A DNA stretch of 64,000 nt from Thermoplasmata archaeon (lineage in GTDB: Archaea; Thermoplasmatota; Thermoplasmata; UBA10834). Shown in pieces: positions 31,362 to 49,733 of this stretch. A program made the position numbers and the translations under genes. Each line of letters opens with the position of its first letter. The stretch's first letter is position 1. The notes below the pieces were generated by a model. The model had not been told where the DNA came from. It did not search any database and saw only the letters and a list, made by a program, of their open reading frames with translations. The DNA lies in the NCBI GenBank assembly GCA_038852315.1, contig JAWCKF010000007.1:1148-65147 (forward strand), given 5' to 3'.

Positions 31362-31370
31362 CTGACTACC

Positions 31371-32640: not shown

Positions 32641-32674
32641 AGTGGGCGACAGGAGAAAGCGAAAGGAGCTTCAG

Positions 32675-34885: not shown

Positions 34886-34940
34886 TCCTGCTAGGGTCTG
34901 GCCAAAGTCTTATAACACACCCCTGCATACATTCGGGCCG

Positions 34941-35168
34941 ATGTGCCTCGCCGTGCCAGCCCTGGTCAAGTCGATTGACGGCCAAACCGCCACCGTCGAC
35001 TACGGTGGGCTCACCAGGAAGGCCAACATATCGCTGGTGGAGGCCAAGGTCGGCGACTACGTCATAGTCCATGCGGGCTACGCGATAGAAGTGCTGGACA
35101 GGGAGGAAGCGGAGAAAACCCTGGAGCTGTTCAGGGAGATGCTGGACCTCGACAGCGCCGGAGCGTAG
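34941..35168 (+). CDS. hypC: hydrogenase assembly chaperone HypC
   Basis: MCLAVPALV N-terminus (essential Cys2), 75 aa. Confidence 0.9.
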   Translation: MCLAVPALVKSIDGQTATVDYGGLTRKANISLVEAKVGDYVIVHAGYAIEVLDREEAEKTLELFREMLDLDSAGA

Positions 35169-35172
35169 TCCG

Positions 35173-35550
35173 ATGCACGAGTTCTCAGTAATGAGCCAGA
35201 TCGTCGACAGCATACTCGATGAGGCTGAGAAGCGGGGCGCTAAGAGGATCGAGCAGGTCGACCTCGATATAGGTGAGTACACGATGCTGGGAGAAGAGCA
35301 GCTGAGATTCGCCTACGAGGTCCTCTCGAAAGACACGATTCTAGAGGGCTCCACACTCCAGGTGGGCCGCATCCTTGGCAGGGTAAGATGCCCTTCGTGC
35401 GGATTCGAGGGGCCCGTCCCAGTGGCCACCGACGCACCCCATAGGATCACGCCTGTGCTGGAATGCCCCGTGTGCAGGTCGCCTTCGGAGATCATCGAGG
35501 GGAGGGAGTGCGTCATAAGGAGGGTCAGGATGGTGGTCCCGGATGTTTAG
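35173..35550 (+). CDS. hypA: hydrogenase nickel insertion protein HypA
   Basis: MHEFSVM N-terminus (MHE Ni site) and a CPSCG...CPVC zinc site. Confidence 0.9.
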   Translation: MHEFSVMSQIVDSILDEAEKRGAKRIEQVDLDIGEYTMLGEEQLRFAYEVLSKDTILEGSTLQVGRILGRVRCPSCGFEGPVPVATDAPHRITPVLECPVCRSPSEIIEGRECVIRRVRMVVPDV

Positions 35551-36634
35551 GCTGCGCGACCAGGAACTCTCAAGGAGGATCATGGAGAAGCTCGAGCGCA
35601 TGCACCTCGAGCTCACTCTTATGCACGTCTGTGGCACGCACCAGGATACACTCGTCAGGTTCGGCCTCGACTCCGAGTTCAGACGTGTGGGCATAGACAT
35701 CAGGCAGGGCCCCGGATGCCCGGTCTGCGTGACGCCGCCCGCTGAGATAGAGGAAGTGCTAGCCATAGCGAGGGCGGGGGTTACCGTGGCGGCCTTCGGC
35801 GACCTTATGAAGGTGCCCGGAGAAAGCGGCAGCCTGAACGATGCGAAGACAGAAGGCGCCGATGTAAGGATAGTGCTTGGAGTGGATGATGCGGTCGCGC
35901 TCGCGAGGAAATCCAAGAAGGAAGTGGTCTTCGCAGGGATAGGTTTCGAGACGACGGCGCCGACTACTGCCTCCGCCCTTCTGTCCGACCCGCCGGAGAA
36001 CTTCTCCGTGCTGAGCCTCCACAGGACCGTTCCCCCCGCCCTCGAAGCGATAGCGACTATGGGGGAGATCGCCCTCGACGGAATGATACAGCCTGGACAT
36101 GTGAGCACGATCATAGGCACGAGACCGTACGAGTTCCTCTCGAGCAGATACCACATACCACAGGTGGTCGCTGGGTTCGAACCGCTCGACCTGATGATGG
36201 GCGTGCTGATGCTGGCAAGGCAGGTTCAAGAGGGGCGAGCCGAGGTCGAGAACGAGTACTCCAGGGTCGTGAGGAAGGAGGGCAACAAGGCCGCGCTCAG
36301 AGCCCTGAACGAAGCATTCGAAGCGAGCGATGTGGTCTGGCGGGGCTTCCCTGTGATCCCGGGCAGCGGGCTCGCCATACGTCAGAAACTCCAGGAACAC
36401 GACGCCCGCAGGAGATACGAGGACCTCCTACGGCCAGTCCATGAGAGGGACTACGTGGAGCCGGAGGGGTGCAGGTGCGGAGAGATGCTGCGGGGAGTCG
36501 CTACGAGCCAGGAATGTCCGCTATTCGGCGAGGTTTGCACCCCTGACAGGCCGGTCGGACCCTGCATGGTCTCCAGGGAGGGCAGCTGCTACATATCATA
36601 CAGGTACCAGAAGGCGAGGTCACGAAAGGCGTGA
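35543..36634 (+). CDS. hypD: hydrogenase formation protein HypD
   Basis: MHVCGTHQD, GPGCPVCVTP and the C-terminal Cys-rich CRCGEMLRG...CPLFG...C region. Confidence 0.9.
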   Translation: MFRLRDQELSRRIMEKLERMHLELTLMHVCGTHQDTLVRFGLDSEFRRVGIDIRQGPGCPVCVTPPAEIEEVLAIARAGVTVAAFGDLMKVPGESGSLNDAKTEGADVRIVLGVDDAVALARKSKKEVVFAGIGFETTAPTTASALLSDPPENFSVLSLHRTVPPALEAIATMGEIALDGMIQPGHVSTIIGTRPYEFLSSRYHIPQVVAGFEPLDLMMGVLMLARQVQEGRAEVENEYSRVVRKEGNKAALRALNEAFEASDVVWRGFPVIPGSGLAIRQKLQEHDARRRYEDLLRPVHERDYVEPEGCRCGEMLRGVATSQECPLFGEVCTPDRPVGPCMVSREGSCYISYRYQKARSRKA

Positions 36635-36810: not shown

Positions 36811-37103
36811 AGCCGCTATATTGTAACGGAATCTATAGCGATGCGACAAGCTCTAACGATTATCGCCGACTATCCCACGCCTTTCGAATCGAAGTACCGA
36901 AACGTATATGAACGGGACCTCTATTAACGCCCAACTGCGAGAGACGATACTGGCCGAGTGTATGAGCCAGAAGGTGCAGGTTCGGGCATTTTCGCGGGGC
37001 ACTCGGACAGGCCCGAGCTCCGTGGGAGTTCGGTGGGAGGTACGACCATGACCGCGCCCGCACGAGGGATCCGCATCTTGCTGGCACAGAAGGGAGGTGC
37101 TGA

Positions 37104-40100
37104 ATGAGCGAGAGCGAGGGCTTCGGCGCCGCCTTGGTGATAGGCGGGGGGCCCGCAGGGATGCAGGCCGCGCTCGACCTGGCGGATTCCGGCTTCAGGG
37201 TGTATCTCGTGGAGAGCACGCCGAGCATAGGCGGAAGGATGGCCCAGCTGGACAAGACATTCCCCACGAACGACTGCTCCCTCTGCATCCTGTCTCCGAA
37301 GATGGTCGCGGTCGGAAGGCACGAGAACATCACTCTCCTGACATATGCGGATGTGGAGGAGGTCCAGGGTTCAGCTGGCAGGTTCAAGGTAAGGGTGAGG
37401 AAGAAGGCCAGATACGTTCACGAGGACAAGTGCGTCGGCTGCGGGGCGTGCGCTGCCGTCTGCCCGTCGAAGGTGGACAGCGAATTCGAAATGGGCATGG
37501 CCAAGCGGAAGGCGATCTACGTGCCGTTCCCGCAGGCCGTACCGCTCAAGTACACCATTGACAGGGAGAGATGCCTGCACTTCAAGACAGGCAAGTGCCT
37601 TCTGTGCGTGAAGGCGTGCGAGGCCAAGGCAATCGACCACAAGATGGAAGACCAGATTCTGGACCTCGAGGTCGGTGCGATCATTGTGACCTCTGGCTAC
37701 GATCTCTTCGACGCTTCCAAGAAGGCCGAGTTTGGGCACGGCCTCTACAAGAACGTGGTCACGAACCTCGAGTTCGAGAGGATGTTGAGCGCATCAGGCC
37801 CGACCGAGGGGCACATACTGAGGCCGTCCGATGGAAAGCCGCCAAAGAGCATCGCGTTCATACAGTGCGTCGGCTCGAGGGACGTACAGACTGGCAACAC
37901 CTACTGCTCGTCATACTGCTGTATGGCGGCCATAAAGGAAGCTGTCATCGCAAAGGAGCACTCGCCCGACCTTGAAGCGACCATCTTCTTCATGGACACG
38001 CGGGCATTCGGAAAGGAGTTTGAGGAGTACCTCACCAGGGCCGAAAGCGAGTACGGCGTGATAGTCTACAGGAACAACCGTGTGCCGAAGGTCCAGGAGG
38101 ATCCCGGGACAGGCAACCTCATTCTCACATTCCATGCGGGCGCCGAGCTGCTCGAGGAGCACTACGACATGGTCGTGCTATCAGCGGGAGCACGCCCGCC
38201 CGCTTCGATGACTGACCTTGCCAGGAAGCTCGGAATTCAGCTCAATAAGTTCGGATTCGTCGACACGGACGATCTCACCCCCGTGGACACCTCAGTTCCC
38301 GGCATATACGTCTGCGGTGTCCTCTCGGGCCCGAAAGACATCCCCGATTCGATAGCTCAGGCGAGCGGTGCTGCGGGCAAGGTGGCCGCATCCCTGTCAA
38401 AGGAGCGGGGCAAGCTGGTGACCAAGAGAGAGTATCCGCCCGAGCGGGACGTTTCGAACGAGCCTCCCAGGATAGGGGTCTTCGTGTGCCACTGCGGGAT
38501 CAACATCGCGTCTGTGGTGGACGTCCAGAAGGTGGCCGAAGTCGCGTCGACGCTGCCCGGTGTGGTGCACTCCGAGAAGATGCTGTATGCCTGCTCGGAG
38601 GATGCTCAGAAGCGCATCAAGGAGATGGTGGAGAAGCACGGCTTGAACAGGGTCGTGGTCGCGAGCTGCACCCCTAGGACTCATGAACCGCTGTTCCAGA
38701 ACACGCTCAGGGAGGCCGGACTGAACAAGTACCTCTTCGACATGGCCAACATAAGGGACCAGTGCTCATGGGTGCACAGGAAGGAACCCGAGAAGGCGAC
38801 GGAGAAGGCGATCGACCTCGTGAGGATGGCTGTCGCGAAGGCGAGTTCTCTGGAGGCTCTGCCACAGCCGAGGATACCTGTCCATCCTGCAGCCCTCGTG
38901 CTCGGGGGCGGGTTGAGCGGACTCACAGCAGCGCTTGAGATCGCAGATGCTGGCTTCGAGGTTCACCTTGTGGAGAAGGACAAGGAACTGGGAGGCCATC
39001 TCAGGAACATCTATCACAAGACGCTCGCGGGCGTCGACCCTCAGGAGGTCCTGCGGGAGCTCAAGAAACGCGCATCCGAGCACCCGAAGATAAGGCTGCA
39101 CATGCAGGATGAGCTAGCAGAACTCAAGGGCTACATAGGCAACTTCGAGGCCACGCTCAAGAGCGGCGAGAAGGTGAAGCACGGGGCCATAGTCGTCGCC
39201 ACCGGCGGGGAGGAGTACGAGCCTGTCGAGTACCTGTACGGCCAGCACCCGCGGGTCATACGGCAGTCCCGGCTGAGCGAGATGCTTGCCAAGGGGGAGT
39301 TCAAGGCCAAGAACGTGGTCATAATCCAGTGCGTCGGCTCGAGAAACGGTGAACACCCTAACTGCTCTAGGATATGCTGCCAGACGGCAATGGCGAACGC
39401 CATCAGAATCAGGAAGGAACATCCCGATACCAACGTGTTCATACTCTTCAGGGACATCAGGACATATGGCTTCGCTGAGGAGCATTACAACGAGGCCGCC
39501 AGGCTCGGCGTCACGTTCCTCAGATACGATCCCTCGCAGCCCCCGCAGGTCTCCGCCGATGGGGACAAGCTCGTGGTCGAGGTGGAGGAGCAGTTCATCG
39601 AGGAGACCGCACGCATAGTGGCCGACTACCTTGTCCTCAACGCGGCGGTCCATCCGAACCCTGACAACCAGGAGCTACACAAGCTGCTCAAGGTGCCCCT
39701 GACGAGAGAAGGGTTCTTCCTCGAGGCGCACATGAAGCTGAGGCCGGTGGATTTCGCGACCGACGGAATATTCCTCTGCGGGCTCGCGCATTCGCCCAGG
39801 CTCATCGGGGAGAGCATCTCCCAGGCCCTCGCCGCTGCCGCGAGGGTTAACACCGTCCTGTCGAAACAGTATCTCGAGGCCGAGGGCGCCGTCTGCGTCG
39901 TCGACGAAGACAAGTGCATCGCGTGCGGCAGATGCGAGGAGGTCTGCAAGTACGGCGCTCCGAGGCTCGATGAGGTCAGACCTGGCGTTGTGAAGTCGCG
40001 CATAAACGAGGCGTTGTGCAAAGGATGCGGGTCGTGCGCCGTCGCCTGCTGCTCACACGCCATAACTGCGAGGCACTTCAGGTCAGACCAGATCGAGAGA

Positions 40101-40154
40101 ATGATCGAGGCGGCTCTGAGGCGGGAGCTCCCGAAGGAGGAGGCAAAGGCATGA
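37104..40154 (+). CDS. hdrA: fused double HdrA-like flavoprotein (QmoA-like N-module + canonical HdrA core), module 1
   Basis: Two dinucleotide-binding sites ([16 protein letters not shown] and [17 protein letters not shown]), [19 protein letters not shown], several CxxCxxCxxxCP ferredoxin motifs, the HdrA N-domain motif [14 protein letters not shown] and [23 protein letters not shown] precedes the start. Confidence 0.9.
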
Positions 40155-41749
40155 CCGATGCGACATTCGAGCCCAGGATAGTCGCGTTCTGCTGCAACTG
40201 GTGCTCGTATGCCGGTGCGGATCTGGCCGGCGTGTCGAGATTCCAGTATCCCCCCAACGCCCGGGTGATAAGGGTCATGTGCTCGGGCAGGGTGGAGCCG
40301 TACTTCGTGCTGAGGGCTCTTGAGCAGGGAGCGGACGGCGTCCTGATCACAGGATGCCACATAGGGGACTGCCACTACATATCCGGCAACGAGGAGGCCC
40401 AGAAGCGCATGGAGATGACCATGGAGCTTCTGGACAAGCTCGGGCTGGGAAGGGACAGGATGCGGCTAGAATGGATCTCCGCCTCCGAGGGTCAGAAGTT
40501 CGCGAAGACCATGACCGAGTTCACGGAGCAGATCCGCAAGCTGGGCCCAAACCCGCTCCAGCCCCAGCCACCGAAGAAGAAGGGGGACGCTTCGAAGCTG
40601 AAACAGGTCATGGACGAGATAATCGAGGGAACGGGTGCGTTCGACTGCGTCGAGTGTGGCAAGTGCACGACCGTTTGCCCAGTGGCCAAGTACAACACCG
40701 AGTTCGCGCCCAGGACAATCGTCCTCAAGGCCATGGAGGGAGTCGCTGAGAACGTCTCGTCGAACAAGGACGTGTGGACGTGCATAACATGCGAGCAGTG
40801 CAACTCGATGTGCCCCTACAAGGTCGATTACTCCGGCTTTATAAGGGACATGAGGAAAGAGGCCACCGGCTTCGGCAACGTCCCTACCTGCTCCCAGGGT
40901 GGGCTGATGCACTCGGTGATGAGGATACAGGCCAACAGCAGTCTAAGGCAGGACCGGTTGCGGTGGCTGACAGACGACCTGAGGATCTCGGACAAGGGTG
41001 ATGTGTTCTTCTTCGTGGGCTGTGTGACCTACTTCGACACAATATTCAGAGAGCGCAAGAACCTCTCCCTGGCTAGCATACCCCAGGCTGCAGTAAAGAT
41101 TATGAACAAGGGGGGTATTGTCCCCGTGGTCAGCAACGACGAGGTATGCTGCGGGCACGATCTCAACTGGACCGGGGACGAGTACAACCTCAGGAAGCTG
41201 ATGAAAAGGAACATCGAGTTGATACGCGCCTCCGGGGCCAAGAAGGTCGTGTTCTCATGCCCCGAATGCCTCAGGACCTTCAGTCTAGACTACCAGGACA
41301 TAATGGGGGACCTGGAGTTCGAGATGGTGCACATCTCGGAGCTGGTGGACGAGCTCGTCCAGGAGGGCAGGCTGAAGTTCAAGAGGGAGGCCCGGAAGCT
41401 CACCTTCCAGGACTCCTGCAGGCTCGGGAGACATCTCGGGACATACGACCCGCCCAGGAGCGCCCTGGCCGCGACGGGCGCTGCGGTTGTCGAGATGGAG
41501 AACACGAAGGACAAGGCACTGTGCTGCGGAGTGAGTGCGTGGGCCACATGCGACGAGATCTCCCGCAAGCTCCAGGTCGCGAGGCTGACGGAGGCGAAGC
41601 GCACGGGTGCCGAGTGCCTGATCACTGGGTGCTACAAGTGCCTGATACACCTGAGCTGCGTGCAGGAGAACAAGACCCAGGTGCCCAAGGAGCAGATCGA
41701 CATCCCGATAAAGGATCTCAGTGTCGTGTTGGCTGATTCGCTTGAGTAA
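40151..41749 (+). CDS. MvhD - HdrC - HdrB triple-domain fusion protein
   Basis: The MvhD domain has [13 protein letters not shown]...GCHIGDCHY. The HdrC-like 2x[4Fe-4S] region has [12 protein letters not shown] and [12 protein letters not shown]. Two HdrB-type CCG domains follow (FFFVGC...VCCGHD and FQDSC...LCCGVS...GCYKC). The start overlaps the hdrA stop (ATGA). Confidence 0.85.
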
Positions 41750-41772
41750 CGGACGGGAGGACTGAGGCAGAG

Positions 41773-42153
41773 ATGACAGACAAGGACCAGAAGGCGCCGC
41801 CGAAGGGTGAGGAGAGGTATCTGCTCGTCGAGCTGTCGTGCAAGGACCTCAAGTGCTCGCCCTGCACCTATCCGAACTGCCAGAGGTTCGTCAGGTCCGT
41901 TCCGAAGAAGAAGCCGTTCGAAACACGCATGACGAAGATGTTCGAGGTGAAGAAGCCGATATCGGCACCCGGCGACACGAGAGAGCGCATACTGCTGGTC
42001 GAATTGTCATGCAAGGACAAGAAGTGCTCGCCGTGCACCTATCCCAACTGCCAGAGGTTCGCGAAAATATCTGGCAAGGGAAAGGCGCCTTTCAAGGTCA
42101 AGGTCACTGAAGTCAAGGGCGACAGGGAGGTGCAGAGCCTCCTGAACAAGTGA
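41773..42153 (+). CDS. small Lys-rich protein with tandemly duplicated CX4CX2CX4C motif, no family recognised
   Basis: 126 aa. ERYLLVELSCKDLKCSPCTYPNCQRF (aa 14-39) is repeated as ERILLVELSCKDKKCSPCTYPNCQRF (aa 71-96). GAGG lies 5 nt upstream of the ATG. Codons are GC3-rich like the flanking hdr genes. The gene begins 23 nt after the previous gene. Confidence 0.65.
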   Translation: MTDKDQKAPPKGEERYLLVELSCKDLKCSPCTYPNCQRFVRSVPKKKPFETRMTKMFEVKKPISAPGDTRERILLVELSCKDKKCSPCTYPNCQRFAKISGKGKAPFKVKVTEVKGDREVQSLLNK

Positions 42154-42229
42154 CAACGACAAAACCCTTAGGAATGCTGCTCGAGGAGAATGATTGCGAG
42201 GGCACGAGGAACCGAGAGGAGGTCTGAGA

Positions 42230-43525
42230 ATGGAGAAGGCCGTGATGGTGATCGGGGGAGGCGTCGCCGGAATACAGGCGGCACTGGACCTGGCTGACAA
42301 GGGGATTATCGTCCACCTGGTCGAGAAGACTCCCAGCATAGGCGGGAGGATGGCGCAGCTGGACAAGACTTTCCCAACGAACGACTGCTCGATATGCATA
42401 CTTGCGCCGAAGATGGCGGACTGCTTCAGCCATCCCAACACGAACGTGATAACCTACGCCGAGGTCGTCGGAGTCGAGGGGAAGGCGGGTGCGTTCAAGG
42501 TCAAGGTACTGAAGAAGGCCAGATACGTCGACGAGTCGAAGTGCACGGGCTGCGGGGAGTGCCTCGAGAAGTGCCCGTCCAAGGTCCCGAACGAGTTCGA
42601 GATGGGGCTCTCCACGAGGAAGGCGATCTACATGCCTTTCATGCAGGCGGTCCCGAGAGTCATGACCATCGACAAGGACCACTGCCTGATGCTCACCAAG
42701 GGCAAGTGCGGCAACTGCAAGAAGGCCTGCAAGAGGGAGGCCATCAACTACGAGATGAAGGACCAGATACTGGAGATCGATGTCGGGGCGATCATCGTCG
42801 CGACGGGGTTCGATTCGTGGGACCCGTCCTCATCAACCGAGTACGGCTATGGCAGGTTCCCGAACGTCTTCACCGCACTCGAGTACGAGCGCATGATAAA
42901 CGCGGCAGGCCCGACGCACGGCCACATCGAGAGGAGGTCTGACAAGAAGCGCCCGCAGAAGATAGCGTTCATACAGTGCGTCGGATCGAGGAATCCGACC
43001 ACGGGTCATCCCTACTGCTGTGCCGTCTGCTGCATGCACTCCACCAAGGAGGCCATGCTGGCCAGGGAGCACCACGACGATATGGAGTCGACGATATTCT
43101 ACAAGGACATGCGCGCCTGCGCGAAGGGGTTCTGGGAATACGTCGAGCGAGCCAAGAGGGATTACGCGGTTAGGTACATCAACTCCGACGCGACCGTACA
43201 GGAGAATCCCGAGAACCACAACCCGATCGTAGTGTACGACGTGGGCGGACGGCAGATGTCGGAGGAGTTCGACATGGTCGTGCTCGCGACCACCCTCGTC
43301 CCGAGGAAGGAGACCCTGGAGCTGGCTAAGGTCCTGGGCCTCAAGGTGGACGAATTCGGCTTCCTCGAGTCCGCCGACCGGATACTCGACCTCGGCCGGA
43401 CGGTCGTGCCAGGCATCTACGTCGCGGGGTACTGCGCCGGCCCTGCTGACATCCCCGAGTCGGTCGCTCAGGGCTCGAGCGCGGCGGCGAAGGCGGTCGA
43501 GACGCTCGCTCAGGCGGGAGTGTGA
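42230..43525 (+). CDS. HdrA/QmoA-like flavoprotein (stand-alone N-module), module 2
   Basis: [35 protein letters not shown] and CTGCGECLEKCP, colinear with residues 1 to about 440 of the fused proteins. The ATG at 42230 is preceded by GGAGGT. Confidence 0.85.
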   Translation: MEKAVMVIGGGVAGIQAALDLADKGIIVHLVEKTPSIGGRMAQLDKTFPTNDCSICILAPKMADCFSHPNTNVITYAEVVGVEGKAGAFKVKVLKKARYVDESKCTGCGECLEKCPSKVPNEFEMGLSTRKAIYMPFMQAVPRVMTIDKDHCLMLTKGKCGNCKKACKREAINYEMKDQILEIDVGAIIVATGFDSWDPSSSTEYGYGRFPNVFTALEYERMINAAGPTHGHIERRSDKKRPQKIAFIQCVGSRNPTTGHPYCCAVCCMHSTKEAMLAREHHDDMESTIFYKDMRACAKGFWEYVERAKRDYAVRYINSDATVQENPENHNPIVVYDVGGRQMSEEFDMVVLATTLVPRKETLELAKVLGLKVDEFGFLESADRILDLGRTVVPGIYVAGYCAGPADIPESVAQGSSAAAKAVETLAQAGV

Positions 43526-43530
43526 TCTTG

Positions 43531-45396
43531 ATGGCGGAGAAGACGATCGACAAGAACGAGAAGCCGAGGATAGGCGTGTTCGTTTGCCACTGTGGCGCCA
43601 ACATAGGCGGGTTCGTGGATGTGCCGTCGGTCGCGGAGTACGCGAAGACGCTGCCTGATGTGGTGTACGCGACAGACAACCTGTACACCTGCGCCGAGGA
43701 CGGCCTTGCGAGCATCAGGGAAGGCATAAGGAAGCACAACCTCAACAGGGTCATCGTCGCGAGCTGCACCCCGAGGACCCATGCCCCGCTGTTCCAGGCG
43801 ACTTGCGAGTCTGCCGGGCTGAACAAGTACATGTTCACGTTCGTCAACATCAGGGAGCACTGCTCCTGGGTGCACATGAAGGAGAAGGAGCGGGCGACCA
43901 AGAAGGCCAAGGACCTCATCCGTATGGGCGTTGCCAGGGCGAGGCTGTTGGAGCCGCAGGTAGAGGCGAGGGTCGACGTCACGCCCGTGGGATTGGTCAT
44001 CGGGGGCGGCGTGTCAGGCATGACGGCAGCCCTGTCGCTGGCCAACATGGGGTTCCCAGTACACCTGGTCGAGCGCGAGAACGAGCTCGGCGGGTTCGTC
44101 AGGAACCTGAACAACCTCTATGTGACGGAGAAGAGCGCCGTCGAGACCATCAGGCCGCTCATCGAGAAGGTCACGTCCCACAAGAACATCACACTGCACC
44201 TGAACTCTCAGGTCAAGAGCGTCGAGGGGTTCATCGGCAACTACGATGTGGTCATAGGGACAAAGGGTGCTGAGGACACCAAGGTCAAGGTCGGGACGAT
44301 AATCGTCGCGACAGGGGCGCTGGAGTTCATGCCCGAGGGGCTGTACGGGTACAACCAGTACCCGAACGTCGTCACGCTGACGGAGTTCGAGATACTGTGC
44401 AAGAAGAAGACCTTGCCGAAGCTGAAGAGCGTGGCGTTCATACAGTGCGTCGGCTCGAGGGGTCAGGTGAAGTCGTACTGCTCGCGGATATGCTGCAACG
44501 TGGCGATCAAGAACGCCATCAACATAGTGGACAACTACGACAACATGCTCGGGCTGGCCGAGAGACAGGGCACTGTCGTGGAGAAGATACCGGTCGAGCA
44601 GAAGGCCACTGACGAGATACTCGAGAGGAGGCGCAGGAGGCGCGGAAGGGAGAGGGGCGAGGAGGCTGGCGCTGAGGAGGTCAAGCTCGGCCCCGCAGAG
44701 AAGATCGAGGTGACCGTGTTCAACAGGGACGTCATGGCATACGGCGTCGAGCACGAGCTGGCGTACAACAAGGCAAGGGAGAAGAGGGTCAAGTTCATCA
44801 GATACACTACGGACCACCTCCCGAAGGTCTACATGGAGGGCAACCAGCTGATGGTCGCCTACTTCCACGAGACCCTGAAGCTCGAGAGGACGATGCCCGT
44901 GGACATGGTCATCCTCTCGACGCCGCTAGTGCAGCAGACCGGAGCTGCGGAGCTGTCCCAGATGCTGAAGGTGCCGCTCGGACAGGAGGGGTTCTTCCTC
45001 GAGGCGCACGTGAAGCTCCGGCCAGTGGACTTCGCGACGGACGGCATCTATGTTTGCGGCACCTGCAGGGGGCCGGCCGACATAACCGAGTGCACCTACC
45101 AGGCCGCGGCGGCGGCTTCGAGGGCCGCGATACCCATGGCCAGGGGTTATGTGCAGGCTGAGGCGCTCACCTCGGTCGTGGACGAGAACAAGTGCACTGG
45201 CTGTGGCACGTGCATACAGGTCTGCCCGTACGGCGCCCTCAGGAAGAACGACAGGGGCTTCGCCGAAGTCATTGTCGCAGCGTGCAAGGGCTGTGGCTGC
45301 TGCGGCGCGACCTGCCCGGAGGGCGCGATCACCATGACGAACTACACGGACGCGCAGCTGCTCGCGGAGGCGAAGGCCGCGCTCGAGGAGGTGTGA
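43531..45396 (+). CDS. hdrA: HdrA core protein (stand-alone C-module), module 2, with a 55-aa charged insertion
   Basis: [50 protein letters not shown]...CSRICC and the C-terminal CTGCGTCIQVCP / CKGCGCCGATCP. The start could instead be GTG 43522, which overlaps the upstream stop. Confidence 0.85.
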   Translation: MAEKTIDKNEKPRIGVFVCHCGANIGGFVDVPSVAEYAKTLPDVVYATDNLYTCAEDGLASIREGIRKHNLNRVIVASCTPRTHAPLFQATCESAGLNKYMFTFVNIREHCSWVHMKEKERATKKAKDLIRMGVARARLLEPQVEARVDVTPVGLVIGGGVSGMTAALSLANMGFPVHLVERENELGGFVRNLNNLYVTEKSAVETIRPLIEKVTSHKNITLHLNSQVKSVEGFIGNYDVVIGTKGAEDTKVKVGTIIVATGALEFMPEGLYGYNQYPNVVTLTEFEILCKKKTLPKLKSVAFIQCVGSRGQVKSYCSRICCNVAIKNAINIVDNYDNMLGLAERQGTVVEKIPVEQKATDEILERRRRRRGRERGEEAGAEEVKLGPAEKIEVTVFNRDVMAYGVEHELAYNKAREKRVKFIRYTTDHLPKVYMEGNQLMVAYFHETLKLERTMPVDMVILSTPLVQQTGAAELSQMLKVPLGQEGFFLEAHVKLRPVDFATDGIYVCGTCRGPADITECTYQAAAAASRAAIPMARGYVQAEALTSVVDENKCTGCGTCIQVCPYGALRKNDRGFAEVIVAACKGCGCCGATCPEGAITMTNYTDAQLLAEAKAALEEV

Positions 45397-45399
45397 CCG

Positions 45400-46236
45400 A
45401 TGACGGAGGTCGCGCACACCCAGATGCTGGAGAAGAAGGAGCTCGAGAGCCCGGCGCAGAGCAAGGAGTGGGAGCCGAAGATAATCGGGTTCCTGTGCAA
45501 CTGGTGCTCGTACGCGGGCGCGGACCTGTGCGGTGTCAGCAGGTACCAGTACCCGACGAACATCAGGCCGGTCAGGGTCATGTGCTCCACCAGGATAAGC
45601 CCGCACCTCGTGCTGGAGCTGTTCGAGGCCGGGGCGGACGGTGTGCTCCTGGGAGGCTGCCACATAGGCGACTGTCACTACATCACGGGGAACTACTACA
45701 CGGAGAAGCGCGTCAGGCTGATGAAGAGGCTGCTCGAGGACGCGGGGATAGAGCCTGAGAGGCTCCGGCTGGAATGGGTCTCCGCCTCTGAGGGTGAGAA
45801 GTTCTCCAAGGTGGTCACGGAGTTCACGGAGCAGGTGAGGAGGCTCGGCCCGAGCAAGGTCAAGAAGGACCAGCTCGCCAAGGTGCGGGTGGCGGCGGCC
45901 GACGAAGCCTCTGAGACCTTCAGGTTGAAGGCGCTCGTGGGCAAGGAGCTGAACCTCGAGACCAAGGGGAACGTGTACAACAACAAGCTCGACAGGGCGG
46001 AGCTGGAGAAGCTCATCGATGCGGCCGCCAGGGACGAGTTCGAGAGGGCGCTCATACTCGAGCTGGCGAAGGAGAGGCCGCGGTCCGTCAAGGAGCTGGG
46101 GAAGATCATGCAGGTGCCCACGGACAAGGTCCTGAGACACATCGTCGTGCTGAGGCAGAAGAACCTCATCGCGATGGATCATCCGGAGGGCTTCACGCCG
46201 ACCTACAGGACGATAGTGATAGGGGGTGAGCAGTGA
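45400..46236 (+). CDS. MvhD-domain protein fused to a C-terminal winged-helix-like domain
   Basis: [12 protein letters not shown]...GCHIGDCHY is the MvhD domain. The C-terminal SVKELGKIMQVPTDKVLRHIVVLRQKNLI resembles an ArsR/TrmB-type wHTH. Confidence 0.8.
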   Translation: MTEVAHTQMLEKKELESPAQSKEWEPKIIGFLCNWCSYAGADLCGVSRYQYPTNIRPVRVMCSTRISPHLVLELFEAGADGVLLGGCHIGDCHYITGNYYTEKRVRLMKRLLEDAGIEPERLRLEWVSASEGEKFSKVVTEFTEQVRRLGPSKVKKDQLAKVRVAAADEASETFRLKALVGKELNLETKGNVYNNKLDRAELEKLIDAAARDEFERALILELAKERPRSVKELGKIMQVPTDKVLRHIVVLRQKNLIAMDHPEGFTPTYRTIVIGGEQ

Positions 46237-49200
46237 TGGCAGCGACCGACAAGATAGGCGCGGTCATGATAGTCGGTGGAGGGATATCCGGCATGCAGTC
46301 CGCGCTGGACCTGGCAGACTCCGGATACAAGGTGTACCTGATCGAGAAGCAGCCGAGCATAGGCGGGACCATGGCGCAGCTCGACAAGACCTTCCCAACG
46401 AACGACTGCGCCATGTGCATCATGGCGCCCAAGCTCGTGGCCACGGGCAGGCACCACAACATCGAGCTCATCACTAACGCCGAGGTCGCGATAGTCGACG
46501 GCGAGGCAGGGAACTTCAGCGTCACCGTGAAGCAGAAGGCCTTCAGAGTGGACCCGAAAAAGTGCACTGGCTGCGGCAGCTGCGCTCAGAAGTGCCCCAT
46601 CGAGACGACAAACGAGTACGACGAGCATACGAAGACCCGTAAGGCGATCTACGTCCGCTACCCGCAGGCCGTGCCGCTCGTGTACTCCATCGATCCCGAC
46701 AGGTGCATCGGGTGCGGCATATGCGCCGAGGAGTGCAAGGCCAAGGCCGTGGACTACGACCAGAAGGAGAAGGTGCTCGAGATCAAGGTCGGGTCGATCA
46801 TACTCTCCCCTGGGTTTGACGAGTTCAACGCTCGCCTGAAATCCGAGTACGGCTACGGCGTGTACAAGAACGTCGTGACGAGCATAGAGTTCGAGCGGAT
46901 ACTCTCCGCCACAGGGCCATACATGGGGACCGTTCTGAGGCCCTCGGACGGGGACATCCCTGAGAAGATAGCCTTCATACAGTGTGTCGGCTCCAGAGAC
47001 GAGCACTGTGGGAACGAGTACTGCTCGAGCGTGTGCTGCATGTATTCCATCAAGGAGGCTGTCATCGCCAAGGAGCACGGCGGGAACATCAAGCCATCGA
47101 TATTCTTCATGGACATGAGGGCCTTCGGCAAGGAGTTCGACGAGTACTACAGCCGCGCGGAGAAGGAGTACGGCGTCAGGTTCGTCCGCTCCAGGGTCGC
47201 GGCCATCAGCGAGGACCCGAGGACGAACGACCTGATAGTGAAGTACGTCGAGAACGGCGAGCCCAAGGAGGAGGTGTTCAACATGGTCGTGCTCGCGGTC
47301 GGGCTCAGGCCTCCTGCCGATGCCGAGGCCCTCAGCAGGATCATGAAGTTCAAGCTGAACGAGGACGGGTTCGCCTCGACGAGCGTGTTCGCCCCGGTGG
47401 AGACATCGAGGCCTGGGATATTCGTCAGCGGCGCGTTCTCCGCCCCGAAGGACATACCGATGACCGTCGCTGAGGCCTCAGGCGCCGCCGCGAAGGCAGG
47501 GACCGAGATAGCCGCTGCCAGGAACACCCTGGTCACGAAGAAGGAGTACCCGCCGGAGATCAACATCGAGGGGCAGGAGCCAAGGATAGGCGTGTTCGTG
47601 TGCCACTGTGGCATAAACATCGGGGGCGTGGTGAACGTGCCCGAGGTGATGGAGTACGCGAAGACCTTGCCCAACGTCGTTTACGCCGAGCAGAACCTGT
47701 ACACGTGCTCTCAGGACACCCAGGAGAAGATCAAGGAGAAGGTCAAGGAGCTGAAGCTGAACCGCGTGGTGGTCGCCAGCTGCACGCCGAGGACTCACGA
47801 GCCGCTGTTCCAGAACACCATCCGGGAGGCGGGGCTGAACGCCTACCTCTTCGAGATGGCGAACATAAGGGACCAGTGCTCCTGGATACACATGCACGAG
47901 CCGAAGGCCGCCACGAAGAAGGCCAAGGACCTCGTCAGGATGGCCGTCGCGAAGGCGCGTCTGCTCGAACCTCTGGAGAACCTGACGCTGAAGGTCAACC
48001 AGTCAGCGCTGGTGCTCGGCGGCGGCGTCAGCGGCATGACCGCCGCGCTCGAACTAGCAAGGCAGGGCTTCAAGGTGCACCTGGTCGAGAAGGAGAAGGA
48101 GCTAGGTGGCAACGCGAGGAAGCTGCACTTCCTCCCGTCCGGCGACGACCCGGTTGCCTTCGCCAAGCAGCTCGACAGGCAGGTGACCTCTAACCCGAAC
48201 ATAACGGTCTACACGGGGGCGAGGGTGAAGTCCATCGACGGCTATGTCGGGAACTTCAAGACGACCCTCGAGAGCGGGGAGCAGCTTGAGCACGGTGTGG
48301 TGATAGTCGCCATCGGTGGCGAGGAATACAAGCCGAACGGCGAGTACCTCTACGGGAAGAACAAGAACGTGATGACGCTGCTCGAGTTCAAGGAGAAGCT
48401 GTCGAGTGGCCAGGCGAAGGGACACGAGTACGTGTTCATCCAGTGTGTAGGCTCCCGCGAGGACAAGCATCCGAACTGCTCACGCGTCTGCTGCACGGGC
48501 ACGATGAGCGCAGCGAAGAAGATCAAGGAGCTGGACCCGAACGCGAAGGTCTACGTCCTGTACCGGGACATCAGGACCTACGGCTTCAGGGAGAAGTACT
48601 ACAAGGAGGCCGCGAACGCTGGCGTGAAGTTCATCAGGTTCGAGGACGACCAGAAGCCCAAGGTCGAGGAGAAGAACGGCAAACTCGAGGTGACCGTCGA
48701 GGATGAGGACACCGGAAAGCTCGTGGTCCTGAAGCCCGACTACCTCGTGCTGGCGGCCGGGACGCGCCCGCAGGCGGATGCGGAGAAGCTCGCGCCCATG
48801 CTGAAGGTGCCCATGACCAAGGAGGGCTTCTTCCTGGAGGCGCATATGAAGCTCAGGCCTGTTGACTTCGCGACGGAAGGGGTGTACCTCGCCGGCCTGG
48901 CGCACGGCCCTAAGTTCATCGACGAGAGCATAGCCCAGGCCCTCGCGGCCGTGTCGAGGGCCACCACGGTCCTGTCGAAGACCGAGCTCGAGGCCGAGGG
49001 CATAGTCGCGAGCGTGGACGAGAAGCTGTGCGACGGCTGTGGCATATGCGTGCCCACGTGCGAGTACAGGGCGCTGGAGATCGTGCCGAACAAGGAGGAC
49101 CCGAAGAAGAAGCTCGTCAGCGTCAACGTCGGGCTGTGCAAGGGCTGCGGAGCTTGCGTGGGCGCCTGCCCGGCTGGCGCGCTGACCCAGAAGGGCTTCA

Positions 49201-49274
49201 GGGACGCGCAGATCTACGCGATGATAGATGCCGCGCTCGAGGGCGAGACACCCAAGCAGGAGGTGAGGCAATGA
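46236..49274 (+). CDS. hdrA: fused double HdrA-like flavoprotein, module 3
   Basis: Colinear with 37104..40154 ([80 protein letters not shown]-terminal CDGCGICVPTCE / CKGCGACVGACP). The ATG overlaps the upstream TGA. A GTG at 46233 is the alternative start. Confidence 0.9.
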   Translation: MAATDKIGAVMIVGGGISGMQSALDLADSGYKVYLIEKQPSIGGTMAQLDKTFPTNDCAMCIMAPKLVATGRHHNIELITNAEVAIVDGEAGNFSVTVKQKAFRVDPKKCTGCGSCAQKCPIETTNEYDEHTKTRKAIYVRYPQAVPLVYSIDPDRCIGCGICAEECKAKAVDYDQKEKVLEIKVGSIILSPGFDEFNARLKSEYGYGVYKNVVTSIEFERILSATGPYMGTVLRPSDGDIPEKIAFIQCVGSRDEHCGNEYCSSVCCMYSIKEAVIAKEHGGNIKPSIFFMDMRAFGKEFDEYYSRAEKEYGVRFVRSRVAAISEDPRTNDLIVKYVENGEPKEEVFNMVVLAVGLRPPADAEALSRIMKFKLNEDGFASTSVFAPVETSRPGIFVSGAFSAPKDIPMTVAEASGAAAKAGTEIAAARNTLVTKKEYPPEINIEGQEPRIGVFVCHCGINIGGVVNVPEVMEYAKTLPNVVYAEQNLYTCSQDTQEKIKEKVKELKLNRVVVASCTPRTHEPLFQNTIREAGLNAYLFEMANIRDQCSWIHMHEPKAATKKAKDLVRMAVAKARLLEPLENLTLKVNQSALVLGGGVSGMTAALELARQGFKVHLVEKEKELGGNARKLHFLPSGDDPVAFAKQLDRQVTSNPNITVYTGARVKSIDGYVGNFKTTLESGEQLEHGVVIVAIGGEEYKPNGEYLYGKNKNVMTLLEFKEKLSSGQAKGHEYVFIQCVGSREDKHPNCSRVCCTGTMSAAKKIKELDPNAKVYVLYRDIRTYGFREKYYKEAANAGVKFIRFEDDQKPKVEEKNGKLEVTVEDEDTGKLVVLKPDYLVLAAGTRPQADAEKLAPMLKVPMTKEGFFLEAHMKLRPVDFATEGVYLAGLAHGPKFIDESIAQALAAVSRATTVLSKTELEAEGIVASVDEKLCDGCGICVPTCEYRALEIVPNKEDPKKKLVSVNVGLCKGCGACVGACPAGALTQKGFRDAQIYAMIDAALEGETPKQEVRQ

Positions 49275-49732: not shown

Positions 49733-49733
49733 G

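What the first reader, a model, noticed from the sequence alone, without database searches (positions are those of the whole stretch)
41773..42153. Unrecognised small protein with a tandemly duplicated four-cysteine motif inside the hdr operon
This 126-aa, very Lys-rich ORF sits between module 1 and module 2, 23 nt after the previous stop, with GAGG 5 nt before its ATG. Its GC3-biased codon usage matches its neighbours. Residues 14-39 (ERYLLVELSCKDLKCSPCTYPNCQRF) are repeated 57 residues later (aa 71-96, ERILLVELSCKDKKCSPCTYPNCQRF). The DNA shows this as two roughly 80-nt direct repeats (41812..41889 and 41983..42060) with scattered, mostly synonymous-looking differences. That pattern argues for selection at the protein level. 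Each repeat has the motif CX4CX2CX4C, giving 8 Cys in total, enough for two Zn sites, two Fe-S clusters or redox-active disulfides. I recognise no family. Given its position, it could be an electron carrier, a thiol/disulfide substrate protein for the CCG domains (analogous in logic to DsrC), or an assembly factor.
Basis: partly seen in the sequence, partly recalled or inferred. Interest (0 to 1): 0.7.

Follow-up and report, generated by a model that had tools for sequence, protein, structure and literature searches.

The report
Conserved eight-cysteine protein in hdr operon
This is a real, strongly conserved small protein from an undescribed family found only in uncultured Thermoplasmata archaea; it carries two copies of a four-cysteine metal-binding-type motif, almost always sits just after the HdrC-HdrB gene of a giant heterodisulfide-reductase/hydrogenase cluster, and is therefore a candidate missing component of an enzyme whose substrate in these non-methanogens is unknown.

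Summary
ORF 41773-42153 encodes a 126-aa basic protein (pI 9.6, 21 Lys) with two copies of a ~50-aa module. Each module carries an invariant E-x2-C-x4-C-x-P-C-x-Y-P-x-C-x-R signature.

- **Selection:** the gene is under purifying selection. More than 200 homologue clusters exist, and every one that carries a taxon label is a Thermoplasmata-type archaeon.
- **Family status:** it matches no Pfam, NCBIfam or PDB family above threshold. An exhaustive profile search of 1.84 billion representatives found only 29 relatives, all stand-alone proteins of 48-151 aa.
- **Gene context:** across species-level genomes, 39 of 40 two-domain copies with enough flanking sequence lie directly before a split HdrA. 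About 37 of 39 lie directly after (MvhD-)HdrC-HdrB. Single-domain versions occupy the same slot.
- **Paralogues:** shorter paralogues follow pyrD-pyrK, or neighbour NifU/HdrC-like or TusA-DsrE-IscS-NifU genes.
- **Closest resemblance:** the only resemblance to a known family is a 20-column match to the CX2CX4C loop of the RnfB/CFeSP [4Fe-4S] domain (hhalign 46%). The fourth cysteine is placed differently.

Best reading (about 0.4): a two-centre Fe-S or other metal accessory subunit of the HdrA1/MvhD-HdrCB module. A structural Zn adaptor or a DsrC-like thiol/disulfide substrate cannot be excluded. Structure prediction failed.

The parts
41773..42153 (+). Gene for the 126-aa two-module Cys4 protein (stop codon included)
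   Evidence: sequence and translation. (in-frame GC3 0.83 against 0.41-0.47 off-frame). (214 homologue clusters). (pN much lower than pS against orthologues).
41756..41767 (+). Shine-Dalgarno-like GGAGG (41756-41760) and GAGG (41764-41767), the latter 5 nt before the ATG
   Evidence: Read directly. That it works as a ribosome-binding site is inferred.
41809..41958 (+). Module 1 (aa 13-62): hydrophobic strand-like RYLLVELS, the Cys knuckle, a basic linker, then PFETRMTKMFEV
   Evidence: Alignments A1 and A3. The profile built from A3 matches the ORF twice.
41839..41880 (+). Cys knuckle 1: C23-x4-C28-x2-C31-x4-C36 (CKDLKCSPCTYPNC)
   Evidence: Invariant in all aligned homologues.
41980..42135 (+). 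Module 2 (aa 70-121): RILLVELS, the Cys knuckle, a basic linker, then PFKVKVTEV
42010..42051 (+). Cys knuckle 2: C80-x4-C85-x2-C88-x4-C93 (CKDKKCSPCTYPNC). Residues 85-106 give the sub-threshold PF04060 match.
41812..41889 (+). DNA direct repeat, copy 1 (codons 14-39)
   Evidence: 41821-41890 vs 41992-42061, 87% identity. (14/78 nt differ; 7 synonymous and 2 non-synonymous codons).
41983..42060 (+). DNA direct repeat, copy 2 (codons 71-96)
40148..41749 (+). Upstream partner gene: MvhD-HdrC-HdrB fusion (FlpD + Fer4_8/17 + two CCG domains). It ends 23 nt before the small ORF.
   Evidence: Pfam. The same gene, or split MvhD + HdrCB, lies directly upstream of the small gene in relatives.
37104..40154 (+). 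HdrA1, a 1016-aa HdrA-like flavoprotein and first gene of module 1
   Evidence: Pfam. Synteny.
42230..45396 (+). Downstream partner: split HdrA2 (N part 42230-43525, C part 43522-45396)
   Evidence: Pfam. HdrA2N follows the small gene in 39 of 40 two-domain loci with enough downstream sequence.
42154..42175 (+). Degenerate remnant (CAACGACAAAACCCTTAGGAA) of a box that relatives conserve between the small gene and hdrA2N, (C)AACGAAAC[AC][GC]ATAA[AT]A. It looks like an archaeal BRE/TATA.
   Evidence: Alignment A4. Promoter function is inferred, not shown.
36896..36909 (+). BRE/TATA-like box ACCGAAACGTATAT about 195 nt upstream of hdrA1; candidate promoter of the unit that ends with the small gene
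   Evidence: It is a 2-mismatch match to a pattern for which chance hits are expected, so this is weak evidence.

Best explanation
The ORF encodes a lineage-specific, stand-alone metal-binding protein made of two copies of a previously undescribed ~50-aa Cys4 module. The module signature is E-x2-C-x4-C-x-P-C-x-Y-P-x-C-x-R, followed by a basic linker and a short strand.

It is made together with HdrA1 and the MvhD-HdrC-HdrB fusion, as the last gene of that unit, and acts as an accessory subunit of this Hdr module.

Each knuckle most likely ligates one iron-sulfur centre, either [4Fe-4S] or [2Fe-2S]. The protein would then provide two extra one-electron relay centres. These would connect the HdrC/HdrB end of module 1 to a neighbouring module (HdrA2/HdrA3-MvhD-MvhGA) or to an external partner. 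Its strong positive charge would dock it on acidic surfaces of the complex.

- Shown: the gene is real, is under purifying selection, has invariant Cys4 signatures, is a family of its own, and has a conserved position after HdrCB.
- Inferred: metal binding, the identity of the metal, physical association with the complex, and electron transfer.
For: 1. **Purifying selection and invariance.** All 8 Cys and the surrounding T-Y-P-N/Q-R-F residues are invariant across homologues down to ~30% overall identity. pN/pS is about 0.05-0.3.
2. **Conserved position.** In GTDB species representatives the two-domain gene lies after (MvhD-)HdrCB in about 37 of 39 loci with enough upstream sequence, and before HdrA2N in 39 of 40. 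The same holds for metagenome contigs at 32-66% identity. Single-domain 70-74-aa versions occupy the same slot.
3. **Tighter link to HdrCB than to HdrA2.** The gap to the HdrCB stop is about 12-29 nt and carries a Shine-Dalgarno motif. The gap to hdrA2N is 100-220 nt in relatives and contains a conserved BRE/TATA-like box.
4. **Independent association.** A divergent 49-aa relative lies between NifU_N and an HdrC-like gene in a 43%-GC contig.
5. **Redox or Fe-S neighbours of other paralogues.** These include pyrD-pyrK (FAD/[2Fe-2S]) in 21 loci and TusA-DsrE2-IscS-NifU.
6. **Local match to a known Fe-S loop.** The match to the RnfB/CFeSP [4Fe-4S] loop is C-x2-C-x-Y-P-x-C-x2-[FY]-[AV]. Pfam PF04060 gives E=6e-4 and 19.9 bits. 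Four of the 120 listed homologues carry a precomputed PF04060 hit. hhalign against an RnfB alignment gives 45.6% over 20 columns.
7. **Precedent for the spacing.** CX4CX2C is also the first part of the [2Fe-2S] motif of plant-type ferredoxins (established knowledge). PyrK has the same spacing: CGIGVCDSC...C, seen in L074.
Against: - No metal, cofactor or protein-protein contact has been shown.
- The PF04060 match is below the gathering score, and only 5 of 27 members reach E<0.1. The zinc-binding IBR domain matches equally often.
- The fourth Cys of PF04060, about 16 residues downstream, is absent. Here the fourth Cys lies 5 residues upstream.
- Prokaryotic Fe-S electron carriers are usually acidic. 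This protein is very basic (pI 9.6), which is more typical of Zn-knuckle, nucleic-acid-binding or 'glue' proteins.
- Both AlphaFold runs were of low confidence and contradicted each other, so no fold supports the model.
- Some copies lie outside any redox context: L055 and L004 next to a THUMP gene.
- One hdr cluster (L062) has an HdrCB-HdrA2N junction without the gene.
Confidence: 0.4

Rival explanations
1. Structural zinc adaptor. Each CX4CX2CX4C knuckle binds Zn(II). The two-module basic protein is a non-redox 'clamp' that staples two (pseudo)symmetric surfaces of the Hdr super-complex together or stabilises HdrCB. Candidate surfaces are two protomers, two modules, or the two CCG domains of HdrB.
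For: - Four closely spaced invariant Cys in a ~50-aa module with flanking strands is typical of small Zn knuckles.
- The module is strongly basic and Lys-rich.
- Sub-threshold matches to zinc-binding families are as frequent as those to PF04060: IBR, Ribosomal_L37ae, Zn_Tnp_IS91, DUF3268. The only PDB profile hits are C2H2 zinc fingers, at E about 0.7-0.8, which is not significant.
- The conserved operon position fits a stoichiometric subunit.
Against: - The spacing is not that of known Zn ribbons, rubredoxin knuckles (CxxC...CxxC) or CCHC knuckles.
- The non-ligand residues T-Y-P-N and Q-R-F are invariant, which is unusual for purely structural Zn sites.
- Paralogues recur next to Fe-S/flavin enzymes and Fe-S biogenesis genes.
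- None of the Zn-family matches is significant.
Confidence: 0.25
2. Protein thiol/disulfide (or persulfide) substrate or relay, working like DsrC or TusA. The conserved cysteines, notably the invariant C-x-P-C pair, cycle between dithiol and disulfide or carry sulfane sulfur. The noncubane clusters of the adjacent HdrB part reduce them. This would give these CoM/CoB-independent archaea a protein-borne 'heterodisulfide'.
For: - The gene sits immediately after the HdrB-containing gene in nearly all loci.
- The host lineages are described as non-methanogens that keep hdrABC/mvhADG with an unknown disulfide substrate (10.1101/2020.03.09.984617).
- No hit occurs in any cultured methanogen genome in the GTDB scan.
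- One relative lies upstream of TusA-DsrE2-cysteine desulfurase-NifU. The pyrDK-linked paralogue has an Aminotran_5 (cysteine-desulfurase-type) gene upstream.
- C-x-P-C has the same spacing and proline position as the thioredoxin CGPC motif (established knowledge).
Against: - There is no similarity to DsrC/TusE, TusA, DsrE or thioredoxin folds at E<=10.
- There is no flexible C-terminal Cys arm; the C-terminus is ...EVQSLLNK.
- Four invariant Cys within 14 residues, with invariant aromatic and Pro neighbours, look like a metal site.
- The TusA context comes from one lineage only, with a 258-nt gap, and involves a truncated 55-aa relative.
Confidence: 0.15
3. Fe-S maturation or cluster-delivery factor. 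It would transiently bind a cluster and hand it to neighbouring Fe-S enzymes: the noncubane clusters of HdrB, HdrC, or PyrK.
For: Relatives lie next to NifU_N, cysteine-desulfurase-type and FeS_assembly_P genes. The neighbours in the main contexts are all cluster-rich proteins.
Against: - CCG-domain and PyrK proteins are matured without such a factor in nearly all other organisms (established knowledge).
- The family is restricted to one archaeal class.
- A fixed position inside the structural operon, with tight spacing, fits a subunit better than a catalytic chaperone.
Confidence: 0.08
4. Nucleic-acid-binding Zn-knuckle protein, acting as a regulator or RNA-binding factor of the hdr and pyr operons.
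For: - The protein is very basic (net charge about +14).
- One paralogue lies beside THUMP and ribosomal protein genes.
- The hdr clusters also carry HTH elements: an HTH_5 gene in L001 and weak HTH hits in the MvhD-long tail.
Against: - There is no match to any DNA- or RNA-binding family.
- Invariance of a 20-residue core across the family, and a fixed position between structural genes, are atypical for regulators.
- No conserved operator-like repeat was noticed near the gene; this was not searched for systematically.
Confidence: 0.07

Closest known systems
N-terminal [4Fe-4S] domain of RnfB/RsxB and of the corrinoid Fe-S protein large subunit (Pfam PF04060 'FeS', CX2CX4CX16C)
   Same: It shares a gap-free local motif, C-x2-C-x-Y-P-x-C-x2-[FY]-[AV]: CSPCTYPNCQRFA here against CGQCGYPGCRPYA in E. 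coli RsxB. Three of the four ligand positions coincide. Both are small Cys4 modules attached to flavin/Fe-S electron-transfer machinery.
   Different: - The score is below the Pfam gathering threshold: 19.9 against 23 bits.
- hhalign probability is only 22-46%, over 19-20 columns.
- The fourth Cys is 5 residues upstream rather than about 16 downstream.
- There is no membrane anchor and no fused ferredoxin or corrinoid domain.
- The module is tandemly duplicated, free-standing and very basic.
MvhB polyferredoxin of Methanobacteriales mvhDGAB operons (from established knowledge; not tested here)
   Same: It is an operon-encoded, dedicated small or multi-cluster Cys-rich protein of uncertain role that accompanies Mvh/Hdr genes.
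   Different: MvhB has twelve canonical CX2CX2CX3CP ferredoxin motifs. This protein has none (no Fer4 hit) and shows no sequence relationship to it.
DsrC (substrate of the HdrD/HdrB-like DsrK) and the TusA/DsrE sulfur relay feeding sHdr complexes
   Same: The logic is the same: a small Cys protein encoded next to a CCG-domain disulfide reductase. One relative neighbours TusA-DsrE2.
   Different: There is no DsrC/TusE or TusA fold match and no C-terminal CX10C arm. The cysteines here form a compact CX4CX2CX4C knuckle, repeated twice.
[2Fe-2S] sites of plant-type ferredoxins and PyrK (CX4CX2CXnC)
   Same: The first three Cys have the same CX4CX2C spacing. PyrK in L074 reads CGIGVCDSC-x7-C. The short paralogue lies directly after pyrK.
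   Different: The fourth Cys here is only 4 residues away, against 7-29 or more. There is no beta-grasp or FNR-type domain and no detectable homology.
Compact [4Fe-4S] loop of Endonuclease III/MutY (CX6CX2CX5C) (established knowledge)
   Same: It shows that four Cys within about 15-17 residues, in a basic loop, can ligate a [4Fe-4S] cluster.
   Different: The spacing, fold (HhH glycosylase) and function (DNA repair) are all different, and there is no homology.

Membership tests
Pfam PF04060 'FeS' (RnfB/CFeSP-type 4Fe-4S domain) | Profile score at or above the gathering threshold (23 bits) | tested here: not met
   19.9 bits, E=6e-4 for the whole protein. Only 5 of 27 diverse members reach E<0.1. 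Four of the 120 listed homologues carry a precomputed PF04060 hit.
Pfam PF04060 'FeS' (RnfB/CFeSP-type 4Fe-4S domain) | CX2CX4C triad with the conserved following aromatic-Ala | tested here: met
   C85-x2-C88-x4-C93-QRFA aligns without gaps to CGQCGYPGCRPYA of RsxB. The same holds for C28/C31/C36 in module 1.
Pfam PF04060 'FeS' (RnfB/CFeSP-type 4Fe-4S domain) | Fourth cluster ligand Cys about 16 residues downstream of the third | tested here: not met
   No Cys follows C36 or C93 within the module. The invariant fourth Cys (C23/C80) lies 5 residues upstream of the first aligned Cys.
Pfam PF04060 'FeS' (RnfB/CFeSP-type 4Fe-4S domain) | Profile-profile homology over the domain | tested here: inconclusive
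   hhalign of A3 against RsxB alone gives 22%. Against an 18-sequence RnfB N-domain alignment it gives 45.6%, pairwise E 2e-4, over only 20 columns. A profile search of PDB sequences did not recover RnfB or CFeSP.
DsrC/TusE | DsrC/TusE fold (Pfam PF04358) and a C-terminal arm with two conserved Cys about 10 residues apart | tested here: not met
   No such hit at E<=10. The C-terminus ...GDREVQSLLNK has no Cys.
Bacterial-type 2x[4Fe-4S] ferredoxin / polyferredoxin (Fer4 families) | CX2CX2CX3CP motifs and a Fer4-family profile match | tested here: not met
   No Fer4 family is listed at E<=10. The motif is absent from the sequence.
Rubredoxin / zinc ribbon / IBR | Two CxxC(G) knuckles separated by 10 or more residues, or a profile match above threshold | tested here: not met
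   There is only one CxxC per module, embedded in CX4CX2CX4C. IBR scores 17.6 bits against a cut-off of 24.3. No rubredoxin hit was found.
HypA (Ni/Zn hydrogenase maturation factor; no hypA ORF lies between msrA and hypB, the stretch of this window's hyp cluster that was checked) | N-terminal MHE Ni site, a CX2C-X12-13-CX2C Zn site, and a PF01155 match | tested here: not met
   There is no HypA hit at E<=10. The N-terminus is MTDKDQ and the Cys spacing differs. The gene keeps its hdr slot in clusters without adjacent mvh or hyp genes, such as L012.
The new family itself (Thermoplasmata Hdr-linked Cys4 module) | Signature E-x2-C-x4(5)-C-x-P-C-x-Y-P-x-C-x-R in a stand-alone protein of 48-160 aa | tested here: met
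   It is present twice in the window protein. These columns are invariant in A2 and A3. The A3 profile hits the ORF at 4.9e-46 with two domains.
The new family itself (Thermoplasmata Hdr-linked Cys4 module) | Gene order (MvhD-)HdrC-HdrB > small gene > split HdrA | tested here: met
   Window. Relatives.

The most novel reading that the evidence does not exclude
The protein is the physiological, protein-borne disulfide (or persulfide) substrate of this methanogenesis-independent Hdr. The two noncubane [4Fe-4S] clusters of the adjacent HdrB part would reduce a disulfide formed by the invariant cysteines, either within a knuckle or between the two homologous modules. The cell would then carry out H2-driven flavin-based electron bifurcation with a genetically encoded 'heterodisulfide' in place of CoM-S-S-CoB.
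Probability: 0.12. Interest if true: 0.85.

Novelty: new variant of a known kind. Interest (0 to 1): 0.58.

Why it matters
Non-methanogenic Thermoplasmata basal to the Methanomassiliicoccales keep large hdr/mvh clusters. The published genome analysis states that their electron acceptor is unknown (10.1101/2020.03.09.984617).

This cluster is unusual. It has three ~1000-aa HdrA units, three MvhD units, one HdrCB and a [NiFe] hydrogenase. A small protein that is almost always encoded right after HdrCB, has an invariant double Cys4 signature and has no relatives elsewhere is the obvious uncharacterised component.

If it is an extra Fe-S relay, it changes the wiring model of a multi-module bifurcating complex. 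If it is a thiol/disulfide carrier, it would identify the missing substrate. Either way it defines a new Cys4 domain family that could be added to domain databases, and it is small enough to test quickly in vitro.

Tried and rejected
- **Structure prediction.** AlphaFold2 with 20 close homologues gave pLDDT 35. With 27 diverse homologues it gave pLDDT 64 and pTM 0.26, with secondary structure opposite to the first run. Foldseek of the better model against the PDB gave nothing. No structural inference is drawn.
- **PDB sequence searches.** The single-sequence search gave no hit. The profile search gave only insignificant C2H2 zinc fingers.
- **NCBIfam.** Only insignificant RsxB-type fragments were found.
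- **Rfam on 41400-42600.** Nothing was found, so it is not an RNA gene.
- **Literature search for the motif spelling.** No paper was found.
- **Split-off piece of an Hdr/Mvh subunit?** The A3 profile hits no other ORF in the window.
- **Gene fusions that could betray function.** None were found. All relatives are stand-alone proteins of 48-160 aa.
- **HypA substitute.** Rejected; see the membership test.
- **RiPP precursor or metallothionein.** Rejected. Pfam scans of the hdr/mvh neighbours listed no radical-SAM or peptide-modification family. The protein is only 6% Cys, and the non-Cys residues are strongly conserved.
- **Apparent start/stop overlaps with HdrCB.** These appeared in my automated distance table but were artefacts of an upstream in-frame ATG. 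Inspection shows gaps of about 20 nt.
Full report
**1. Observation**

The window holds an ATG-initiated ORF at 41773-42153 (+). It encodes MTDKDQKAPPKGEERYLLVELSCKDLKCSPCTYPNCQRFVRSVPKKKPFETRMTKMFEVKKPISAPGDTRERILLVELSCKDKKCSPCTYPNCQRFAKISGKGKAPFKVKVTEVKGDREVQSLLNK.

- The preceding gene stops at 41749, so the gap to the ATG is 23 nt. GAGG lies 5 nt before the ATG, and a GGAGG lies a little further upstream.
- The repeat finder reports a direct repeat, 41821-41890 vs 41992-42061, at 87% identity and 171 nt spacing.
- Over codons 14-39 vs 71-96, 14 of 78 nt differ. Seven codons differ synonymously and two non-synonymously (pS 0.47, pN 0.10).
- In-frame GC3 is 0.83, like the flanking hdr genes (0.81-0.89). 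The other two frames give 0.41-0.47.
- The protein has pI 9.6, with 21 Lys and 8 Cys.

**2. It is a real, conserved gene of an undescribed family**

A word-seeded search of 5.8 billion proteins found 214 clusters at E<=0.01.
- The 120 listed are 118-157 aa long and 66-98% identical.
- Every source name among them is 'hypothetical protein', and every named organism is a Thermoplasmata archaeon MAG.

In 20 aligned homologues, all eight Cys and the blocks ELSCKDxKCSPCTYPNCQRF are invariant in both repeats. So is a second element in each repeat, KKxPF(E/K)x(R/K)(M/V)T(K/E).

An exhaustive HMMER profile search of 1.84 billion cluster representatives found only 29 proteins at E<=1e-3. All are 48-151 aa long, and they include single-module versions. 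A domain-level profile search found only stand-alone proteins of 48-93 aa, with no fusions.

The columns invariant across the whole family give the signature E-x2-C-x4(5)-C-x-P-C-x-Y-P-x-C-x-R. Orthologue comparisons give pN far below pS.

No known family is matched above threshold.
- Pfam gives only sub-threshold hits: PF04060 'FeS' at 19.9 bits (cut-off 23) and IBR at 17.6 bits (cut-off 24.3).
- NCBIfam gives only insignificant RsxB fragments.
- PDB sequences give nothing.
- Rfam finds nothing in the region.

**3. Genomic context in the window**

Pfam scans and ORF listing give this order:

1. hypB, hypF, a 125-aa ORF (35173-35550; hypC by position only, not scanned) and hypD, at 31990-36634. 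These names come from reading the translations; hypD is supported because the syntenic upstream gene in relatives carries PF01924.
2. HdrA1 (1016 aa, 37104-40154).
3. MvhD-HdrC-HdrB fusion (40148-41749; FlpD + Fer4_8/17 + two CCG domains).
4. The small ORF.
5. A split HdrA2 (42230-43525 and 43522-45396).
6. An MvhD with a ~130-aa tail (45400-46236).
7. HdrA3 (1013 aa, 46233-49274).
8. MvhD (49271-49732).
9. MvhG (49725-50750).
10. MvhA (50757-52271).

Each HdrA unit is therefore followed by an MvhD-containing protein. Only the first of these carries the HdrC/HdrB disulfide-reductase part, and the small gene follows exactly that one.

**4. Conserved synteny**

A scan of one genome per GTDB species returned 73 loci.
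- 72 are labelled Thermoplasmata, Thermoplasmatota, Euryarchaeota, Methanobacteriota or Methanomassiliicoccales MAGs. They include UBA10834 and the RBG_13_57_23 and RBG_19FT_COMBO_56_21 genomes.
- One is labelled Paceibacterota. Its motif ORF is near-identical to that of Thermoplasmatota locus L076, so it is probably mis-binned.
- None comes from a cultured methanogen.

I annotated all loci against the window's proteins. There are 45 two-module copies.
- 39 of the 40 with enough downstream sequence are followed by HdrA2N.
- About 37 of the 39 with enough upstream sequence are preceded by (MvhD-)HdrCB.
- The exceptions are L054, which lacks HdrCB, and L055, a second copy in an unrelated neighbourhood.

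Metagenome contigs with proteins only 32-46% identical keep the same slot. So do single-module proteins of 70-74 aa.

The gap to the HdrCB stop is short, about 12-29 nt on inspection. The gap to hdrA2N is 100-220 nt in relatives. It contains a conserved box, (C)AACGAAAC[AC][GC]ATAA[AT]A, followed about 11 nt later by TTACGG.
- I read this box as an archaeal BRE/TATA plus initiator. This is inference.
- On that reading, the small gene is the last gene of the HdrA1-MvhD/HdrCB unit.
- In the window itself the box is degenerate and the gap is only 76 nt.

**5. Contexts of the shorter paralogues**

- The same genomes carry a ~50-aa single-module paralogue (..WNxxYExIETSC....CxPCTYPNCQR..). In 21 loci it lies directly downstream of pyrD-pyrK. 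An Aminotran_5 gene lies further upstream and an HMGL-like gene is on the other strand.
- A 49-aa relative in a 43%-GC contig lies between NifU_N and an HdrC-like gene, which is 33% identical to the window's HdrC part.
- A 55-aa relative lies 258 nt upstream of TusA-DsrE2-Aminotran_5-NifU_N/FeS_assembly_P.
- A 48-aa relative lies beside a THUMP gene.

The recurring theme is flavin/Fe-S enzymes and Fe-S or sulfur trafficking. The lineages are related and several of these contexts are single observations, so this is supportive evidence, not proof.

**6. What the motif resembles**

The segment C-S-P-C-T-Y-P-N-C-Q-R-F-A aligns without gaps to C-G-Q-C-G-Y-P-G-C-R-P-Y-A of E. coli RsxB. That segment is the CX2CX4C part of the RnfB/CFeSP [4Fe-4S] domain.
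- hhalign gives 22% probability against RsxB alone and 45.6% against an 18-sequence RnfB alignment. Only 19-20 columns align.
- The fourth ligand of that domain, about 16 residues downstream, is missing. Here an invariant Cys lies 5 residues upstream.
- The first three Cys (CX4CX2C) also match the spacing of the [2Fe-2S] sites of plant-type ferredoxins (established knowledge). PyrK shows the same spacing, CGIGVCDSC in L074.

Compact Cys4 ligation of an Fe-S cluster is therefore plausible. Membership of PF04060 is not established, and zinc-binding families match about as weakly.

**7. Structure**

Two AlphaFold2 runs gave pLDDT 35 and 64 (pTM 0.23 and 0.26), with mutually inconsistent secondary structure. 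Foldseek found nothing. I draw no structural conclusions.

**8. Interpretation**

*Shown:*
- It is a selected, lineage-restricted, stand-alone two-module Cys4 protein.
- Its gene is tied to the HdrCB gene of a triple-HdrA/Mvh cluster.

*Inferred, best reading (about 0.4):*
- Each knuckle binds an Fe-S centre.
- The protein is an accessory electron-relay subunit of the HdrA1/MvhD-HdrCB module.

*Rivals:*
- A structural Zn adaptor (0.25). Its basic charge and knuckle-like size favour this.
- A DsrC/TusA-like thiol or persulfide carrier reduced by HdrB (0.15). The unknown Hdr substrate of these non-methanogens and the TusA/IscS neighbours favour this. Nothing in the sequence ties it to those families.
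- An Fe-S maturation factor (0.08).
- A nucleic-acid-binding regulator (0.07).

**9. Novelty and score**

No database family, name or paper covers this module. In kind, it is a small Cys-motif protein accompanying a redox complex, which is familiar. It differs in having a new signature, a tandem architecture and a specific link to an unusual Hdr super-cluster.

I classify it as a new variant of a known kind and score interest at about 0.58. The most novel reading still open is a genetically encoded disulfide substrate for Hdr. I give that about 0.12 probability; it would be of high interest if true.

Noticed in passing
window 42154-42229; relatives L014-L036, region between the small gene and hdrA2N (alignment A4): Relatives have a 100-220-nt spacer with a conserved box, (C)AACGAAAC[AC][GC]ATAA[AT]A, followed about 11 nt later by TTACGG. 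It looks like an archaeal BRE/TATA plus initiator, about 100-150 nt upstream of hdrA2N. The window keeps only a degenerate remnant directly after the stop codon, and its spacer is 76 nt. Module 2 may therefore have lost its own promoter here.
   Followed up: partly
window 36896-36909: A BRE/TATA-like ACCGAAACGTATAT lies about 195 nt upstream of the hdrA1 start and may be the promoter of the hdrA1-mvhD/hdrCB-small gene unit. It is only a 2-mismatch match, and chance matches are expected.
   Followed up: partly
window 45400-46236: The second MvhD-like protein (278 aa) has a ~130-aa C-terminal extension with weak, sub-threshold ArsR-type HTH matches (HTH_20 E=0.003, HTH_5 E=0.03). Relatives additionally carry a separate HTH_5 gene between mvhD and mvhG (L001), which the window lacks.
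   Followed up: partly
window 37104-49274: There are three paralogous ~1000-aa HdrA-like units. One is split into 431-aa and 624-aa parts whose reading frames overlap by 4 nt at 43522-43525. Each unit is followed by an MvhD-containing protein. This multi-module architecture is conserved across the family's genomes.
   Followed up: partly
L065-L086 (GTDB Thermoplasmata genomes), around position 8000 in each locus: A ~50-aa single-module paralogue (..WNxxYExIETSC....CxPCTYPNCQR..) lies directly downstream of pyrD-pyrK in 21 loci. An Aminotran_5 gene is upstream and a homocitrate/isopropylmalate-synthase-like gene is on the opposite strand. This may be a dedicated partner of the PyrK electron-transfer subunit.
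   Followed up: partly
L008 and L010, gene after the small ORF (8628-11384 in L008): In one divergent lineage the gene after the small ORF is a 918-aa protein with a Fer4_20 (GltD/NfnB-type) domain, in place of the 431-aa HdrA2N. This hints at an NAD(P)H-linked variant of module 2.
   Followed up: no
L068 (DATEYD010000314.1, labelled Candidatus Paceibacterota): This contig's motif-bearing ORF is near-identical to that of Thermoplasmatota locus L076. It is probably a mis-binned archaeal contig in a bacterial MAG.
   Followed up: no
L024, L027, L029, L032 and others vs window 41812-41889 / 41983-42060: In several genomes the two repeats are more alike at the DNA level within a genome than each is to its orthologue in the window. 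In L029 the figures are 92% against 76-78%. This suggests occasional gene conversion between the repeats, or strong codon bias.
   Followed up: partly
window 30948-31850 and 31990-36634: The hyp cluster has no hypA-like ORF in the stretch immediately upstream of hypB, the only place checked. msrB-like and msrA-like genes lie there on the opposite strand (names from reading the translations, not scanned).
   Followed up: no
L062 (VGTL01000012.1): This locus contains two HdrCB > HdrA2N junctions. Only the second carries a (single-module) small gene, so the protein is not obligatory for every such junction.
   Followed up: no
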